Part shown: positions 49,261 through 59,760 of the stretch, one piece after another
Layout: the number at the start of each line of letters is the position of its first letter
Position numbering within the stretch: the first letter of the stretch is position 1
Assembly: GCA_030390025.1 (NCBI GenBank)
Contig: CM059432.1
Location: forward strand, 6,262,001 to 6,326,000
Reading direction: 5' to 3'
DNA from: Squalus acanthias
Taxonomy: Eukaryota
Length of the DNA: 64,000 bases
The notes under the pieces: generated by a model
Seen by the model: the letters and a program-made list of their open reading frames with translations, nothing else
What the model was told of the DNA's origin: nothing
The model's database searches: none
Translations under genes and position numbers: made by a program

Positions 49261-49573
49261 CGGCTAGAGTAGAGAAAACTGCTGCACAAAGTAAGAGGGG
49301 AAAACTTTTCTCCCTGTACCTTATTTTTCACAGTACATTACCCTATTAACATAAGAACATAAGAAATAGGAGGAGTAGGCCAATTGGCCCCTCGAGCCTG
49401 CTCCGCCATTCAATAAGATCATGGCTGATCTGATCCTAACCGCCAATCTACTATCACAGAACCATCTCCTGAACCTAACAGAATTGGACACACGAAATAG
49501 GAGCAGGATCAGGCTACACGGCCCCTGGGCCCGCTACGCTACCCACAGGGCCATGACCGATCCGAACCTAGAC

Positions 49574-52525
49574 TCATGTCCAAATTCCTGCCCGCTCCCT
49601 GTAACCCTTAATTCCCTTTACTTCTAGGAAACTGTCTATTTCTGTTTTAAATTTATGTAATGATGTAGCTTCTACAGCTTTTTGGGGCAGTATATTCCAT
49701 GGACCTACCACCCTCTGAGTGAAGTAGTTCCTTCTCATCTCAGTTTTGAAAGAGCAGCCCCTTATTCTAAGACTATGCCCCCTAGTTCTAGTTTCACCCA
49801 TCATCGGGAACATCCTCCCCGCATCCACCCGATCCAACCCCTTCACAATCTTATATGTTTCAATAAGATCGCCTCTCATTCTTCTGAACTCCAATGAGTA
49901 GAGTCCCAATCTACCCAACCTCTCCTCATATGTCCATCTCCTCATCTCCGGGATTAACCGAGTGAACCTTCTTTGTACTGACTCGAGAGCAAGTATGTCT
50001 TTTCTTAAGTATGGACACCAAAACTGTATGCAGTATTCCAGGTGCGGTCTCACCAATACCTTGTACAACTGAAGAAATACCTCCCTATTTTTATATTCTA
50101 TCCCCTTAGCAATGAAAGCCAACATTCCATTGGCCTTCTTAATCACTTGCTGCACCTGCATACTAACCTTTTGAGTTTTGTGCACCAGGACCCCCAGATC
50201 CCTTTCTACTTCAGTACTTTCCAGTTTCTTGCCATTTAGATAATAACTTGCTCTACTATTTTTCCTGCCAAAGTGCATAACCTCACACTTTCCAGTATTG
50301 TATTCCATCTGCCAAATCTCTGCCCACTTACTTAGCCTGTCTATGTCCCCTTGCAGATTTTTTATGTCCTCCTCACTCACTACTTTCCCTCCCATCTTAG
50401 TATCATCTGCAAACTTTGATATGTTACACTCGGTCCCCTCCTCCAAATCGTTAATATAGATTGTAAAGAGTTGGGGACCCAGCACTGACCCCTGCGGAAC
50501 ACCACTAGTTACTGATTGCCAGTCTGAGAATGAACCATTTATCCCAACTCTCTGCCTTCTGTTAGATAGCCAATCCTCTATTCATGCCAGAATATTACCC
50601 CCAATCCTGTGATTTTTTATCTTAAGCAATAATCTTTTGTGTGGCACCTTGTCAAATGCCTTTTGGAAGTCTAAATACACCACATCCACTGGTTCCCCTT
50701 TATCCACCCTGTGTGTTACTTCCTCAAAGAACTCCAGCAAATTTGTCAAACATGACTTCCCCTTCATAAAACCATGCTGACTTTGTCCTATTAAATTATG
50801 ATTATCCAAATGTCCCGTTACTGTCTCCTTAATAATGGACTCCAAAATTTTACCTACCACAGATGTTAGGCTAACCTATCTATAGTTTCCAGCCTTCTGT
50901 CTACTGCCCTTTTTAAATAAGGGTGTTACATTAGCAGTTTTCCAGTCTGCCGGGATCTTTGCTGAGTCCAGGGAGTTTTGGAAAATTATTACCAATGCAT
51001 CCACAATCCCTACCGCCACTTCCCTCAAGACCCTAGGATGTAAGCCATCAGGTCCAGGTGATTTATCCGCCTTGAGTCCCATTATTTTACCGAGTACCAC
51101 TTCCTTAGTGATTTTGATTGTGTTTCGCTCCTCCCCCCCTATAGCCCCCCGTTTGTCCAGTGTTGGGATATTCTTAGTGTCCTCTACTGTAAAGACTGAT
51201 ACAAAATATTCATTCAGTGTATTTGCCATCTCCATATTTCCCACCATTAATTTCCCGGTCTCATCCTCTAAGGGACCAACATTTACTTTAGCCACCCTTT
51301 TTCTTTTTATATAACTATAAAAACTCTTACTATCTGTTTTTATATTTTTTGCTAATTTACTTTCATAATCTATCTTCCATTTCTTAATCAATCTTTTTGT
51401 TACTTTTTGCTGTCTTTTAAAGTTTTCCCAATCCTCTATCCTCCCACTAGATTTGGCTACCTTATAACCCCTTGTTTTTAGTCGAATACTATCCTTAATT
51501 TCTTTACTTAGCCACGGATGACTGTCTTTTCTTTTACACCCTTTTCTTCTCAGTGGAATATATTTTTTTGGGAAGCTGTAAAATAACTCCTTAAATGTAC
51601 ACCACTGATCATGTATCGTCTTACCCTTTAATCTATTTTCCCAATCCACTCTACTAAATTCCGCTCGCATACCTTCATAGTCTCCTTTATTCAAGCTTAG
51701 CACGCTTGTTTGAGATCCAACCTTCTCACCCTCTAATTGAATATGGAATTCAACCATGTTATGGTCACTCATTCCAAGGGGATCCTTTACTAGGACATTT
51801 TTAATTAATCCTGTCTCGTTACACAGGACCAGATCTAAGGTTGCTTGCCCCCTGGTCGGTTCAGTTACATACTGCTCAAGAAACCCATCCCTAATACACT
51901 CAATGAACTCATCCTCAAGGCAGCCCTGCCCAATTTGATTTGTCCAATTAATATGATAGTTAAAATCCCCCATAATTATAGATGTTCCCTTATTACAAGC
52001 CTCAACTATTTCCCGATTGATACTCCGTCCAACAGAGTTGCAACTATTCGGAGGCCTATAGACTACGCCCACTAGTGTTTTTTTCCCCTTATCATTCCTT
52101 ATCTCCACCCAAACTGTTTCATTATCCTGATCTTTTGACCCAATATCATTTCTCTGTATTACAGTGATTCCTTCCTTTATTAACATAGCCACTCCACCTC
52201 CCCTTCCTTCCTGCCTGTCCTTCCTGATCGTTAAATAACCTGGTATATTTAATTCCCAGGCATTGTCACCCTGCAGCCATGTTTCTGTAATGGCCACAAG
52301 ATCATACCCATATGTAATTATTTGTGCCATTAACTCGTCTATTTTGTTACGAATGCTATGTGTATTCAGATAGAGAACTTTCAAATATGTTTTGTGACAC
52401 TTAGTTCCTGCTTTTGCCCTTTTTATTAGTTTACCTTTTACTCCATACCTTCTGCCCCTTCCTGACACACTCTGGTTTTTAATTTCCCCACTGCTACCTA
52501 AGTCTATGACCTTCTCTGTTGTCAT
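49574..52525 (-). pseudogene. CR1 ORF2 (APE endonuclease and reverse transcriptase); single frame with two in-frame stops (50876-50878 TAG, 50582-50584 TGA)
   Basis: EN motifs LYLN, ITETW, GGGVA, GDFN, SDH; RT motifs PGPDG, NYR*VSLTS, QHGF, YLDFQKAFD, LGPQLF, FADD. The three ORF-track segments share one frame. Confidence 0.93.
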
Positions 52526-52563
52526 TTTTATTATTTGCTCTCTAGGAACCTCCCCCCCACTAG

Positions 52564-53503
52564 TTAGTTTAAAGCCCTCTCTACAGCCCTAGTTATATGA
52601 TCCGCCAGGACTCTAGTCCCAGCACTGGCCAAGTGAAGCCCGTCCCAACGGAACAGCTCCCTCCTGCCCCAGTACTGGTGCCAGTGCCCCAGGAAGCAAA
52701 ACCCATTTCTCCCACACCAGTCTTTGAGCCACTCATTTAACGCTCTAATTTTATTTGTCCTAGCCAAATCCGCTCGTGGCTCAGGTAATAATCCAGAGAT
52801 TATTACCCTTGAGGTTCTGTTTTTTAATTTGACCCCTAGCTGCTCATACTCCTTTAACAGAACCGGCTTCCTTGTCCTATCTACGTCGTTTGCACCAACA
52901 TGGACCACGACAACTGGATCCACCCCCTCCCACTGCAAGTTTCTTTCCAGCCCAGAGGAGATGTCCTTAACCCTGGCACCGGGCAGGCAACACAGCCTAC
53001 GGGACTCTCGCTCTCGGCTGCAGAGAACTCTATCTATCCCCCTAATAATACTATCCCCTACCACTACAACATTTCTATTTACTCCCCCCTCTTGAATGGC
53101 CCCCCATTCCACGGTGCTCATCCTCCCTGCAGTCCCTGCTCCCGTCCCCACAGGGAGTAAGAACCTCAAACCTGTTGGACAAGAGCAAGGGCTGCGGCTC
53201 CTCCAACACTACCTCCTGGATCCCCGTACCTGCCTCACTCGTAATCACACCGTCCTGTCCCTGACCATGGGCTACATCTGAATTAATTAACTTCATAGGT
53301 GTGACCACCTCCTGAAACACAGAGTCCAGGTACTTCTCCCCCTCCCTGATGTGTTGCAGTGTCGGAAGCTCAGACTCCAGCTCATCAACACGGAGCTGGA
53401 GTTCCTGTAGCAGCAGACACTTGTCACAGATGTAATCACCGTGAGCCTCAATGGGGTCCACCGGCTCCCACATCTCGCAACAGTAACACATCACCTGCTC
53501 CAT
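52564..53503 (-). pseudogene. CR1 ORF1 (Cys-rich zinc finger, coiled coil, SGNH/GDSL esterase); one frameshift near 53110
   Basis: CYCCEMW...CDKC plus LQELQLRVDELESEL coiled coil; VVVVGDSIIRG, HVGAND and DGLHL SGNH blocks; ends RALN-stop. Confidence 0.9.
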
Positions 53504-53906
53504 TCTATGTAATTAATTAAATTTTTTATTGTTAGTTATGGACACTCTCTGCCCGATTATAGATGCTAGTATCCCCTCTAATTAATTGGATTTAAATTAA
53601 ATCAATCCCTCTAAATTATACCAGTTAAATGGTTTACCAACAGTCACTCTGCACCAGAAAGGCCTTATTAACTACAACTCACAGAGTTTAAGTTTAAAAA
53701 GAGCACCCGACACTCCACTCACCCGAACTCCCACTTACCCAAACTCAGCACTCTCTGCTGACTTGCACTCAATGCTGGCTCGCACTCACACTGGTCTTTT
53801 TATACTGTTTGTTTGTTTACAGCCAAATGAGTCACCCCTGCTGATTGATTAGAAAACTGGTTTCCACTGCCTGCTGTGCCAATTTACTCCTGCTGCAGTG
53901 TAACCT

Positions 53907-54514
53907 TGTTTTACTCTTCTTTCTCTTTTTGATAAAACCAATTAAATATCTGTAACTCAGTAAAACTTTAAAGGAAACTTAACAAATCAAATTAAAATTT
54001 GGTAGTCCGGGGTGACGATGCACTCCAGTCCCCGCGGCGCCCACCGGTCGCGGAAACACTCAAGCGTGCCGGCGGACACCGCGTGCTCCATCTCCAGGGC
54101 CACCCGGGCGCGAACATGGCCGCGGAAGAGAGGCAGGCAATCGGGCCGAACGACCCCCTCGACCGCCCGCTGCCTGGACCAATTAATGGCTTTCTTAGCC
54201 AGGCCATTTTACTCTTCTTACTATTTTGATCAAACCAATCAATCATCTGTAACTAAATAAAACTTTAAAGGAAACTTAACAAATCAAATTAAAATTTGGT
54301 AGTCCGGGGTGACGATGCACTCCAGCCCCCGCGGCGCCCACCGGTCGCGGAAAAACTCAAGCGTGCCGGCGGACACCGCGTGCTCCATCTCCAGGGCCAC
54401 CCGGGCGCGAACATGGCCGCGGGAGAGGCAGGCAATCGGGCCGAACGACCCCCTCGACCGCCCGCTGCCTGGACCAATTAATGGCTTTCTTAGCCAGGCC
54501 GTTTTACTCTTCTT
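53907..54514 (-). repeat. ~297-bp tandem duplication in the CR1 5' UTR containing a Tx1-clade ORF2 C-terminal fragment
   Basis: ggtagtccgg at 54001 and 54298. Reverse strand 54205-53987 reads GLAKKAINWSRQRAVEGVVRPDCLPLFRGHVRARVALEMEHAVSAGTLECFRDRWAPRGLECIVTPDYQILI-stop. Confidence 0.85.
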
Positions 54515-55959
54515 AAACCAACAGAATCCCAAATAGTTAACTTTTCCCCTTCACTTAAACTGCTTAAGTACTCTTATCAAGAATGATTTAAAGAGAACTA
54601 ACAATTAAAGAACTACTCCCACTTACCCAAACTCAGCACTCTCTGCTGACTTGCACTATTCTTTCTCTAATTCCAGTCCCTCTTTACCACAAATTAACTT
54701 TTGAACTACAAATCAATATTTTACTTGGAGCAATTGCAACCATTCTCTTGCACTTGAGCAGCTGCTGCAACCCACTTGTAGTGTGGAGTTACAGTCAAAT
54801 CTTATTCCCATCTTTTCTGCAAATGCGCATATGGCAGGAGTGATGAAAAGAATTAACTAGAAGACATTTCGGGGTCTTAGATTTGTCTCTGGTTCAATCA
54901 AAAACTCCTCCTCCAATAAAAGCTTTGAAGCCACTGGGTTAGATTTTCAACATGTCGCCTCGGTGGAAGACTGGTGTTGTGGATCAGTTGCCTATTATAA
55001 ATTGTCATAATTAACTTTCCATTGATTGTAACGCAACTGAAAATCGGGTTTTATAACTTGCGGCTGATCCACAAAGCCAACTTGGGTGGCAAGTTAAAAT
55101 TCTACTCCACGATCTCAAGTAAATTTCAACCAATGCAAAGCCCAAAGGAGATCACTTCGACAGTAGCAGGATCCAGTGTTGTGAGCCACCTTCATTGAGT
55201 TTCACAATGACTGCTCAACCTTTCCTAATTGACTTGCTTTCCTGGCAACCTCTTTCACCTCCAGCCAACTTCTCTCTCCATTGCAATCCTTTCTTGCCCT
55301 TCTCTCTACGTTACTGGTCAAGTTACCTCTGAACTTTTCTTTCTTGTCCATGCTAAGTTCCAAATATGCCATTCTACATGCGTCCTCCCTACAGCTTCAC
55401 TGTTGAAATCAATACTCAATGAATATTTTCTTATTCTTGTACATTATTTCCCTAGATCTGAAAACGATGGAACTCCTTATGACTTCAAGTCTTTGCTTTT
55501 CTACACAATCCTGGAATTATAAAACCCAAGCTTGACATCACCTAATAGCTACTTTTTGATTTACCTTGTCTTCTCTTTTACTGTTTTCAACTATGGCGAT
55601 GTCCTTCTGCTCAGAACATCGACCATTTCTCTTAGTTTCTCGAAAAGATATTTTTAATTCAATTTTCAATAGGTCTGCTGTTACGTCACTTCTTATTTCA
55701 CTCCTAGAAAACCTGAATAATGGAGGGTGTTCTGAAGCAATGACGAAAAAGGAATTGCTAGATGAAGAAAGATCAAGGTTCATCTTGTTCCTCTTCTACC
55801 ATCCTGGTAGTCTCATGGTACAATGATAATGGAGTTGTTGACTAATCACAGCAATCAATCTCTATCAATGAGTCTACAACAGACCCAGACATGACATGAA
55901 GAAAGCCCCAGTGGTGGAGAGCTTTGGGAACCATAGGTCCAAAGTCCCCTGTTCCTCCC

Positions 55960-58900
55960 AAGCATGCTACACTTACCACGTCATGTCTCAAATTACTCAT
56001 ATACTGTATCCCAAAATGTTATTTTCTGAAAGAAATCTGTTTAATTTGAATGAATCAATACTAACTGCTTCCACAGTCTTCCTAGGGAGCCTGTTCCATA
56101 GATTAACCACTCGCTCACTGAAATATTATTTCCACATATGTGTTTTGAATTTACCCCTCTTGAAGTCCAGGCTGTGTCCTCTGGTCCTACTTTTGTGGAA
56201 AAGGTGAAATAGATGGTCATGGTCTACTTTATCTAGTCCCTTTAGAATCCTAAAAACAGCAATCACATTACTTGGAATCACCTGGAGAAATACAGAACCA
56301 TTAGAGGGAGCCAGCTTTATGGGAGGCAGATTATACCTGATGACTCTTCTGGAGTTCTTTAAGGAGATAGCAAACCTTGTGGATAGGAGGAAATTAATGG
56401 ATGTTGTTCATTTGGATTTTGGCAATGTAATTTGATACAGTGCAATACAGGAAACTGGTCCACGATGTTGGAAGTTCTGATATAGGTAAAGTGCTTTTGA
56501 AATTTATTGAAAATTGGCTGAAGCAGAGGAAGAAAAGGATGGCTGGATCAGCATGGAAGCTGGTAACTAGTGCTGGGGCTGTTGTTTATAATGTACATAA
56601 ATGACTTGGAAGTGAGGACATGAAAAAAAACTCTCCAAATTTGCAAATTATTTCAGAAACAGGCTGATCTAATGCAGAAAGATCCGGCTAGATTGGGCAG
56701 CTGGGCTGATCAGTGATAGATGTCATTTTATGTGGACAAATGCAAAGTCGTAAGATTGGGAAATAATATACAGTAGCAATATAAGCTAAATAGGTATAAT
56801 AACAGTAAAAGGGTTGTCAGACGAAAATGGAGATTATTGGTGAAGGCAGAAGGCATGGCTGAGGTACTAAATGAGTACTTTGTACCTGTGTTTACCAAGA
56901 GGACTTTGCCAAAGCCACGGTAAATGAGGAGGTTGTCGGGATACTGGATGAGATAAAAATAGATAAGGAGGTACTAGAAAGGCTGGCAGTACATAAAGTG
57001 GATAAGTCACCTGGTCCAACTGGGATGCATCCTAGGTTGCTGAGGGAAGCAAGGGTAGAAATTGCAGAGGTACTGGTCAGAATCTTCCAATCCTTCTTCG
57101 GGATATAGGAGTGGTGTCAGATGACTGGATGATTGCAAATGTTACATCCTTGTTCAAAAAAGGGGAAGGATAAACCTGACAGTTACAGGCCAGTCAGTTT
57201 AACATCAGTGGTGGAGAAGCTTTTAGGAACACTAATCCGGGAGAAAATTAACAGCCACTTGGACAAGCATGTACTAATAAAGGAGAGCCAGCACGGATTT
57301 TTTAAGGGCAAATCGTGTTTGACTAACTTGATTGAGTTTTTTGATGAAGTAACAGAGAGGGTGGATAAGGGCAGTGCAGTTGATGTTGTATATATGGACT
57401 TTCAAAAGACGTTTTATAAAGTACCACATATTAGGCTTGTTAGCAAAATTGAAGTCCATGGGCTAAAAAGGACAGTAGCAGCAAGGATACAAAATTGGCT
57501 AAAGGATAGAAAAGAGAGTGTGGTGAAAGGCTGTTTTTCAACTGGAGAGAGGTATACAGTGGAGTTCCGCAAGGTTCAGTACTAGGACCACTGCTGTTTT
57601 TGATTTACATTAATGACTTGGACTTGGGGACAATTTCAAAATTTGCAGATGACACGAAACTTGGAAGAGTAGTAAACAATGAGGAAGATAGTAATAGACT
57701 TCAAGAGGACAGACAGGCTGGTGGAATGGGTGGAAACATGGCAGATGAAACTCAACACAGAAAAGTGTAAGGTGATACAATTTGGTAGGAAGAGTGAGGA
57801 GAGACAATACAAGCTAAATGGTACAATTTTAAAGGGGGTGCAAGAACAGCGAGACCTGGGAGTGTTTGTGCACAAATCTTTGAAGGTGGCAGGACAAGTT
57901 AACAAAGCAGTTAATAAAGCAGGTGGGATCCTGGGCTTTATAAATAGAGGCATAGAGTACGAAAGCCAGGAAGTTATGCTAAACCTATATAAAGCACTAG
58001 TTCGGCCCCAGCAGGAGTATTGTGTCCAATTCTGGGCACCACACTTTAGGAAGGACGTGATGGCTTTGGCGAGGGTACAGAAGAGATTTACTAGAATGGT
58101 TCCTGGGATGAGGGAATAGTTACGTGGATAGACTGGAGAAGCTGGGGTTGTTCCCTGGGGTAGAGCAGAGAAGGCTAAGAGGAGATTTGATAGAGGTGTT
58201 TAAAATCATGAAGGATTTAGATAGACTAAATAAAGAGAAACTGTTTCCAATACCTGAAGGGTCGATAATGAGAGGGCACAGATTTAAGGTGATTGGCAAA
58301 AGAACCAGAGCAGACATGAGGAAAAACTTTTTTTTAACGCAACGAATGAGTGGTTAGGATTTGGAATTCACTGCCTGATAGGGTGGTGGAAACAGATTCA
58401 ATAGTAGCCTTCAAAAGGGAATTGGATAAATACTTGGAGAAGAAAATTGTAGGGAATGGCCCCCTTCTATGCTGTGCTATTGTATGATTTTATAAATGGT
58501 ATTACTCTACAGGATACTGAAAGTGATTTGGGGTTACTGTTGGCCAGCAGCACAGTGTGTAGCAGCAGTAAAGACAGCAAATAGGATGTTGGGTTGTATA
58601 GCCAGAGGAAAAGAGCTGAAATCTTGGGAAGTGTTTCTGAGTTTGGACAGAACACTGATCCAGCTCAGTCTGGCAAATTGCGCACAATTCTGGTCATCGT
58701 ATTATGAGACAGACATCTAGGCACTGGAGAGGGTGTAGTAAAGGGCGACTAAATTGATAGCTGGCATTAGGCACCTGAATTATGAGGAAAGACTGAGTAG
58801 AATACAAGGGGGTAGAAGTTATGCGACAGCTATACAAAGCCCTGGTTAAACCACACCTGGATTACTGAGAGCTGTTCTGGGCACCACACCTTAGGAAGGA

Positions 58901-59760
58901 TATATTAGCCTCGGAGATATATACTGGCTTAGGAGGGAGTGCAGCGTAGATTCCTGGACTCCAAGGGATAAATTACGAGGAAAGATTATACAAATTAGGG
59001 TTGTACCTGGAATTTAGAAGGTTAACAGGTGATTTAATCGAACTTTTCAGGATATTAAGGGGAACTGAGGGTAGATAGAAAGAAAGTATTTCCATTGGTT
59101 GAGGAGTCTCAACTTGGGGGCATAGTCTAATAATTAGAGCCAGACCTTTCAGGAGTGAAATTAGGAAACACTTCTACACACAAAGGGTGGTAAAAGTTTG
59201 GAACTCTCTTTCGCAAACGGCAATTGATGATAGGTCAATTGTTAATTTTAAATCTGAGATCGATAGATTTTTGTTAACCAAAGGCATTAAGGGATCTGGG
59301 GACAAAGGTGGGTATATGGAGTTAGGTCACAGATCAGCCGTGATCTTATTGAATGGCGGAACAGGCTTGAGGGGTTAAATGGCCTACTCCTGTTCCTATG
59401 ACTGCAGGAACTAGGAATGCTCATACTGAGGAGAAGGCTCAGGGTGGTATTATTGAAATTTTCAAGATCACAAAGTTTACGTAATAGTCATGATAAACAC
59501 CAACATGTTCAACAGTCACAGATTCAACAAAAGGGCACAACCTCAAAACAGAACAGGGAGGGTGAAAAGTCAGTTTGCAATGAACTACTTTATGCACAGG
59601 GAATAGAATTCAAAAGGAGGCAGTGGGGCAAATTGTAGTGAGGGTTGGATAAGTACTGGACAAAGAATTTCATGAGTGTATGAAAGGTATGGTAGGATAT
59701 ATTTTCTCGGCACCAGGATTGGCCACAATGGTTTTTTCTGGTTTTGTACATTTCCATGTA
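55960..59760 (+). mobile_element. Nested CR1 cluster: old copy (~56290-59760) interrupted by younger CR1s (~56790-58495 and ~58800-59400), plus a - strand remnant (~55960-56280)
   Basis: [45 protein letters not shown] motifs with many frameshifts; separate 3' tails near 58470 and 59395. Confidence 0.85.

What the first reader, a model, noticed from the sequence alone, without database searches (positions are those of the whole stretch)
53907..54514. CR1 5' UTR has captured and duplicated the 3' end of an unrelated Tx1-clade LINE
Seen: two ~297-bp tandem units, each with ~220 bp of very CpG-rich sequence. In the same sense as the CR1, one unit gives a 72-aa open stretch (GLAKKAINWSRQRAVEG...FRGHVRARVALEMEH...FRDRWAP...QILI-stop) plus a T-rich tail; the other has a 2-nt deletion. 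From recognition, this matches the ORF2 C-terminus of L1-Tx1 elements (LAKxAI...R...F...W pattern). CpGs are undecayed although the surroundings are CpG-poor. Inference: a cross-clade LINE chimera in which Tx1 coding DNA was co-opted as a repeated CpG-island-like 5' UTR monomer.
Basis: partly seen in the sequence, partly recalled or inferred. Interest (0 to 1): 0.75.

Follow-up and report, generated by a model that had tools for sequence, protein, structure and literature searches.

The report
Tx1 double-hit in CR1 promoter region
The two GC-rich repeats are short tail fragments of one jumping gene (Tx1 type) stacked at a landing spot it uses often in the front end of a different jumping gene (CR1); they likely arrived in two separate insertions, the second likely copying its front junction from the first, and they are not a repeat unit of the CR1 family.

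Summary
Observation confirmed; interpretation mostly wrong. The units (54500-54220 and 54205-53922, minus strand) are 5'-truncated ends of a young Tx1-clade LINE. The peptide is 71/72 identical to the end of an intact 1299-aa ORF2, which is 51% identical to Xenopus YTX2. Three copies of a 14-bp target duplication frame the units. The genome holds 276 exact empty and 79 exact Tx1-filled copies of this site in the CR1 5' UTR. All 19 truncated inserts with a readable 5' junction stop at different points, and the window's junction occurs nowhere else. So this is target-preferring insertion, not a co-opted UTR monomer. The two units share a 5' junction but carry different tail haplotypes, each recurring elsewhere; 14 of 17 unbiased tandem pairs show the same pattern. 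The best reading is re-insertion at the upstream duplication, with the new cDNA pairing with the resident copy. CpGs decay 4.4-fold faster than other C/G across the family, so their richness reflects youth. The host CR1 is dead and absent at the orthologous locus of three relatives. The scan reported this Tx1/CR1 system before, at other windows of this genome, and the same-junction tandem pattern here and in another genome.

The parts
54515..54657 (-). CR1 5' leader, first copy (starts AGTGCAAGTCAGCAGAG); 5' boundary of the whole CR1 insertion
   Evidence: Empty CR1 copies begin at or near here in 9 of 10 loci; relatives' contigs join 49342/49344 to 54656/54659
54501..54514 (-). Target-site duplication copy 1, AAGAAGAGTAAAAC
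   Evidence: single copy in 276 exact empty sites
54220..54500 (-). Upstream Tx1 unit (U): last 72 codons of ORF2 with a 2-nt deletion, plus a 3' tail of the AATAGT haplotype; inferred to be the later insertion
   Evidence: tail within 1 edit of 7 other loci
54206..54219 (-). Target-site duplication copy 2, AAGAAGAGTAAAAT (C>T at a junction CpG)
53922..54205 (-). Downstream Tx1 unit (D): same 5' junction, open 72-aa ORF2 end (53990-54205), tail of the AAAGAGA haplotype; inferred resident copy
   Evidence: tail identical in 6 other sampled units, within 1 edit in 19
53908..53921 (-). Target-site duplication copy 3, AAGAAGAGTAAAAC
53770..53907 (-). Remainder of the CR1 UTR repeat unit: second Tx1 landing site TACAC (53902-53893), CCAAT-like motif (53848-53840), TGACTCA (53834-53828), TATAAAAA (53804-53797); promoter role inferred from motifs only
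   Evidence: TACAC-site insertions in L100, L160, L161
53727..53769 (-). Second copy of the 43-bp leader start, 35 nt downstream of the first base of the TATA motif
52564..53503 (-). CR1 ORF1 (Cys-rich N-terminus plus SGNH esterase), frameshifted in this copy
   Evidence: Pfam Lipase_GDSL_2; PDB 4c1b ORF1 protein E 2e-30; frame continues further in L231 and L219
49574..52588 (-). CR1 ORF2 (APE endonuclease plus RT) broken by two in-frame stops
49343..54657 (-). Whole CR1 insertion, including both Tx1 units; absent at the orthologous locus in organisms B, C and F
   Evidence: single contigs bridge the two flanks in runs X6, X7, X11 (table 8)

Best explanation
The two units are 5'-truncated ends of a young Tx1-clade LINE sitting at one of its preferred landing sites, a 14-bp site in the 5' UTR of a young CR1, and they likely came from two successive retrotransposition events. 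Step 1 (anatomy shown, event inferred): target-primed reverse transcription put in a 284-nt copy (D) with a 14-bp duplication. Step 2 (inferred): an RNA with a different tail re-inserted at the upstream duplication, which recreates the target. Its cDNA paired with the resident copy just downstream and finished by copying the resident's 5' part, so U has D's exact 5' junction but its own tail. The host CR1 is dead, the structure has left no progeny, and no function is needed to explain it.
For: Target duplication present three times. 276 exact empty versus 79 exact filled sites, with 0 hits for the reversed controls. 19 of 19 truncated inserts with leader and duplication readable have different 5' ends (positions for five of them). 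The window junction has 2 hits at up to 1 mismatch, both here. U and D tails are 8 edits apart, and each recurs at other loci. In the unbiased set (loci), 14 of 17 adjacent truncated pairs share the 5' junction, and all 14 differ in the tail by 2-21 edits. In L086/L087, L121, L156 and L017, rare variants shared by neighbours cluster near the junction, mostly within ~130 nt, and the units then diverge. In 5 of 5 same-junction pairs that include an old, substitution-rich unit (under 91% to the reference: L087, L114, L121, L156, L017), that unit is downstream. L057 has an AAG-tail unit opening 19 bp upstream of a TACAC-tail resident yet sharing its junction, which duplication through the target repeat cannot give. 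Precedent for insertion into the 5' duplication: Drosophila R1 (PMC2718515, sections 11 part 1 and 15 read) and SINEU-3 (PMC4494074, section 14 read).
Against: In the window itself U and D share no rare variant, so the copied-5'-part step is shown only at other loci. The order U after D is inferred from those loci. No one-unit allele of this locus was seen; only contigs were available. Specificity is loose: only 11 of 96 unbiased 3' ends lie in the CR1 UTR. Counts are exact-match lower bounds made with different patterns.
Confidence: 0.8

Rival explanations
1. There was one Tx1 insertion, then a local tandem duplication through the 14-bp repeats, then gene conversion of one tail by another of the >1000 copies.
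For: Identical 5' junctions are what duplication predicts. Donors are abundant (1168 exact 3' matches). A few tandem pairs have identical tails (L002, L010, L011).
Against: All 14 same-junction pairs in the unbiased set differ in the tail. The old unit is always downstream (5 of 5). L057 shows units opening at two different sites.
Confidence: 0.12
2. One reading: Tx1 coding DNA was co-opted as a repeated CpG-island-like monomer of a CR1 subfamily's 5' UTR.
For: CpG o/e is 1.0 and neither unit has lost a CpG. At least 79 copies of the CR1 UTR site carry Tx1 DNA.
Against: The junction is unique to the window, and insert lengths vary at every locus. CpGs decay 4.4-fold faster family-wide. Zero CpG changes in 96 positions is expected about 8% of the time (from the 2.6% rate), and the CpG at the junction of D has decayed. 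The host has a frameshift and two stops.
Confidence: 0.03
3. The Tx1-in-CR1 association is amplified mainly by hitchhiking: Tx1+CR1 composites retrotranspose as one unit.
For: 26 of 29 full-length Tx1 copies that begin with the CR1 leader end in the CR1 UTR, and none ends at an unrelated site (traced). Two composites (L214, L229) start inside Tx1 with no leader within ~10 kb upstream. L042 and L231 share a rare leader variant and pair in both small trees.
Against: No linkage of rare variants between the Tx1 and CR1 parts in 31 composites (rho 0.05, p 0.17). An earlier significant value came from one locus counted twice. Mantel test on 12 loci p 0.27. L214's flanks did not rejoin into one site, and L218 was an interrupted full-length copy. 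Both leader types occur with both CR1 bodies. This model does not explain distinct truncations that each keep their own duplication. Power is low because the trees are star-like.
Confidence: 0.05

Closest known systems
Tx1L of Xenopus laevis (UniRef YTX2) inserted in the piggyBac-type Tx1D; crocodilian Tx1-Mar, Tx1-8_Crp, Tx1-4_AMi, Tx1-9_AMi and SINEU (PMC4494074; passages and section 14 read)
   Same: Tx1-clade ORF2 (51% identity over 100% of the length). Preference for a site inside another transposon, ~14-16 bp duplications, tandem copies sandwiching a duplication, preference ranging from strong to weak, and possible transcription from the host repeat.
   Different: The host is the 5' UTR of another non-LTR element (CR1), whereas the passages read name DNA transposons, LTR elements, RNA genes, satellites and microsatellites. 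Tandem units share 5' truncation points. One family splits into three tail/target groups.
Drosophila R1 tandem arrays (PMC2718515; section 11 part 1 and section 15 read)
   Same: New copies insert into the 14-bp duplication at the 5' end of a resident copy. Target-derived sequence at the RNA ends is proposed to anneal to the target.
   Different: R1 targets 28S rDNA. The sections read do not describe an upstream unit inheriting the resident's truncation point.
Templated or chimeric L1 insertions by SDSA-like pairing of nascent cDNA (bioRxiv 10.1101/2024.08.27.596794, one passage read; earlier cell-culture work recalled, not read)
   Same: Nascent cDNA pairs with nearby homologous DNA and duplicates a genomic segment.
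   Different: A minor outcome for L1 (22 instances in that passage), but the majority outcome among tandem pairs here (14 of 17).
Mouse L1 5' UTR monomers (recalled)
   Same: This CR1 UTR has a ~295-bp unit present in one or more copies (L005; 293-bp spacing on C7).
   Different: That unit is the AT-rich leader/TATA-motif segment, not the Tx1 DNA; the similar length is coincidence.

Membership tests
Tx1 clade (insert) | APE endonuclease + RT + C-terminal zinc-binding ORF2 closest to Tx1L | tested here: met
   Pfam Exo_endo_phos, RVT_1, zf-RVT; best named full-length hit YTX2_XENLA, 51% identity, 100% cover; L1 ORF2p best in PDB
Tx1 clade (insert) | RT phylogeny against the Repbase/RTClass1 reference set | not testable with these tools
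   No Repbase or Dfam library is available; placement rests on similarity
Target-preferring Tx1 | Fixed 3' junction, variable 5' truncation and target duplication at a recurring site | tested here: met
   79 exact filled junctions; 19 of 19 distinct 5' ends
Target-preferring Tx1 | Strict single-site specificity | tested here: not met
   96 unbiased 3' ends: 34 TACAC, 29 AAG, 28 AACAC, 5 other; 11 of 96 in the CR1 UTR
CR1 clade (host) | ORF1 with esterase, APE-RT ORF2, short-microsatellite 3' tail, little or no target duplication | tested here: met
   4c1b; TTCTTATG tail; near-blunt empty site; that these features define CR1 is recalled
CR1 clade (host) | RT tree placement in CR1 rather than L2 | not tested
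   Label rests on domain layout and recall
Co-opted 5' UTR monomer (as in mouse L1) | Same unit with the same boundaries shared by many family members | tested here: not met
   2 hits in the genome, both in the window
Co-opted 5' UTR monomer (as in mouse L1) | Promoter activity or protection from methylation | tested here: inconclusive
   Family-wide CpG decay 4.4-fold; window units have 0 CpG changes where ~2.5 are expected; no direct assay

The most novel reading that the evidence does not exclude
This Tx1 family steers itself with its RNA ends rather than only with its endonuclease. Three 3'-tail haplotype groups map almost one-to-one onto three landing motifs (AAG 26/26, AACAC 30/31, TACAC 37/37). 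ORF2 of the AAG and AACAC groups is 97-98% identical and differs at only two endonuclease positions. Full-length copies begin with DNA matching their host repeat. Target choice would then be inherited through read-through RNA that pairs with the target, letting a Tx1 LINE parasitise the promoter region of a CR1 LINE and rebuild its 5' end from DNA already at the site.
Probability: 0.25. Interest if true: 0.7.

Novelty: new variant of a known kind. Interest (0 to 1): 0.4.

Why it matters
The locus itself is a dead double insertion with no sign of function. The system behind it matters more. A LINE lands repeatedly in the promoter region of a LINE from another clade, and its tandem copies usually inherit the resident's 5' junction. 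That makes it a natural record of how second-strand priming is solved by cDNA-DNA pairing, a poorly resolved step of retrotransposition. Intact ORF2 copies exist (6 found), so the tail-versus-endonuclease question is directly testable. It also warns that same-length tandem LINE fragments with identical ends need not be duplications or UTR monomers.

Tried and rejected
Pfam scan of the 72-aa peptide: no family. Tandem Repeats Finder did not list the two-unit array. Rfam on 53400-55000 gave one chance-level hit, so the target is not an RNA gene. Rfam on four other target loci found no ribozyme family, so the 'Penelope-like' label for the AACAC target is from recall and earlier scan notes, not tested here. 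Hitchhiking tests: not significant at n=12; the p=0.009 was an artefact of L084 and L212 being one locus; after dropping L084, 31 loci gave p=0.17. Three leader-less composites gave one interrupted full-length copy (L218), one whose flanks did not rejoin (L214) and one not resolved (L229). Splicing as the origin of the short leader-Tx1 junction was considered because of GG/GTAAGT in the leader, and rejected because no AG precedes the join; it is a TTGG microhomology. Expression: no RNA holder listed. One run guessed to be RNA holds the empty junction as a contig and is not counted as evidence. Contigs could not span the two-unit region, so allele states in a second individual are unknown. Paper searches listed no paper on Tx1 targeting a CR1 UTR. 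The library lacks most subscription journals and Repbase Reports, and Kojima & Fujiwara 2004 was seen only as a citation.

Full report
Setting. The window is G000:C8:6262001-6326000 of a 3.7-Gb vertebrate genome. A CR1-type LINE lies on the minus strand from 54657 to about 49343. It has an esterase-bearing ORF1 (Pfam; PDB 4c1b E 2e-30), an APE-RT ORF2 and a TTCTTATG tail. The CR1 label rests on this layout and on recall. ORF1 is frameshifted and ORF2 has two in-frame stops. Single contigs from three related organisms join the two flanks directly (runs X6, X7, X11), so the whole insertion is absent there and lineage-specific. A second sample of the same organism has the flank-to-leader junction (X5).

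Observation. The two units are real, 95.5% alike, and CpG-rich (o/e 1.0 against 0.39 in the CR1 body). The 72-aa peptide is 71/72 identical to the end of an intact 1299-aa ORF2 from L225. The best named full-length relative of that ORF2 is Xenopus YTX2, at 51% identity, and the peptide alone matches the YTX2 C-terminus (E 4e-10). The compared host RT fragment has no significant similarity to this ORF2 (best E 0.16). The layout on the minus strand is leader - TSD - U (281 nt) - TSD - D (284 nt) - TSD - rest of UTR, where the TSD is AAGAAGAGTAAAA(C/T).

Is it a family monomer? No. The empty site occurs 276 times and the Tx1-filled 3' junction 79 times as exact patterns, with reversed controls at 0. 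I examined 30 of the 79 with 1.5-kb flanks and 20 with about 8.7 kb upstream (three of these were among the 30), plus hits. Inserts range from a tail-only fragment to a full-length 7.1 kb. All 19 loci where leader and TSD run straight into a truncated Tx1 have different 5' ends. The window's junction has two hits at up to one mismatch, both in the window. The true repeat unit of this UTR is the ~295-bp leader plus TATA-motif segment, doubled in L005. Across 208 young units, CpG positions differ from the majority at 2.6% against 0.6% for other C/G, which is the usual mark of germline methylation. The whole Tx1 ORF2 is CpG-rich (o/e 0.87). The window units have no CpG change where about 2.5 are expected, which is unremarkable, and the CpG at D's junction has decayed.

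How specific is the targeting? The 3'-end pattern has 1168 exact matches. I took the first 100 listed and recovered 96 distinct ends. They fall into TACAC (34), AAG (29), AACAC (28) and other (5) starts. Eight lie at the window's site and three at a second site 19 bp downstream, so 11 of 96 are in the CR1 UTR. That is far above chance for a site present some hundreds of times in 3.7 Gb, but it is a preference, not strict specificity. Tail type tracks target class almost perfectly: 26/26, 30/31 and 37/37 among units over 90% identical to the reference in loci L078-L162. Between 21 AAG and 5 AACAC full-length copies, the endonuclease differs at two positions (113 and 167), with further differences in and beyond the RT; only one TACAC copy was recovered. 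Neither RNA guidance nor endonuclease change is excluded.

Why two units with one junction? U and D differ by 8 edits in the tail. U's tail is within one edit of 7 other loci; D's is identical to 6 sampled units and within one edit of 19, so two different templates contributed. In the unbiased loci, 14 of 17 adjacent truncated pairs share the junction and all 14 differ in the tail; over all fetched loci, which include query-biased ones, a few pairs have identical tails. Where units are long or old, shared rare variants sit next to the junction and the old unit is downstream (5 of 5). L057 has units opening at two different sites yet sharing a junction. The inferred mechanism is re-insertion at the upstream TSD, with the nascent cDNA pairing with the resident's top strand. 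Insertion into the 5' TSD is described for Drosophila R1 (PMC2718515, section 11 part 1 and section 15 read), and sequential tandem insertion for SINEU-3 (PMC4494074, passages and section 14 read). cDNA pairing with nearby DNA is noted for L1 (bioRxiv 10.1101/2024.08.27.596794, one passage read). In the window U and D share no rare variant, so this step is not shown here directly.

Cross-clade sharing that does exist. Full-length Tx1 copies at this site begin with the CR1 leader, in a short (~33 nt) or a ~150 nt form. Of 13 plus 16 exact junction matches, 26 end in the CR1 UTR, one ends in another Tx1's leader and two could not be traced. AACAC-group copies likewise begin with about 45-60 nt of their own target. 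Which element donated the leader, and whether it drives Tx1 transcription, was not shown. Hitchhiking of composites found no support at low power (one search contained a duplicate locus).

Earlier notes. I wrote the insertion model into the notebook before any look-up. The scan's notes report the same Tx1/CR1 system at other windows of this genome and the same-junction tandem pattern here and in another genome. One gave the R1 paper as a lead. They are unchecked AI notes and are not counted as evidence. One claims composites travel as cargo, which my limited test did not support. A look-up by sequence returned nothing.

Verdict. The feature is real and the Tx1 identity is right, but the co-option reading is wrong. 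It is a new variant of a known kind: a transposon-targeting Tx1 whose host is a CR1 5' UTR, with junction-inheriting tandems. The listed paper searches showed no description of this host, but Repbase and most subscription papers could not be searched. Supplements of PMC4494074 (target figures S3-S5) were not opened and may list further hosts. Interest 0.40.

Noticed in passing
L031, L032, L036, L039, L041, L047 versus window 53834-54657: Two CR1 families only ~68% alike in ORF1 share the same ~250-bp 5' module at ~97%, then diverge into different TATA-bearing segments: a recent 5' UTR swap.
   Followed up: partly
L164, L165, L179, L184, L190 (5' ends); L137, L142 arrays: The AACAC tail group inserts mostly into one other abundant repeat (26 of 31) and forms arrays of full-length 7.17-kb copies, each led by 45-60 nt of target sequence; the host is called Penelope-like in earlier notes, not confirmed by Rfam here.
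   Followed up: partly
L140 (G000:C2:150174900-150184700): Four 2.29-kb Tx1 units in tandem; the three with a visible 5' end share one truncation point, and the first and last tails differ.
   Followed up: partly
L015:1700-1800: A young Tx1 unit is inserted in the 3' UTR of an older, diverged Tx1 relative.
   Followed up: no
L078, L196, L222: Tx1 copies are inserted into the leader remnant at the 5' end of another full-length Tx1.
   Followed up: partly
L081, L097, L164 tails versus target upstream: The AACAC-group tail contains ATTTGTCCA, complementary to TGGACAAAT lying ~14-23 nt upstream of its landing site in many target copies; seen by eye, no shuffle test.
   Followed up: no
L010-L012, L016 (G000:C3256:709590-715576): Long array of ~290-bp and ~230-bp Tx1 ends repeating as a higher-order block, apparently amplified again after formation.
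   Followed up: no
window 56700-59400 (+): Another, older and broken CR1-type element on the plus strand.
   Followed up: no
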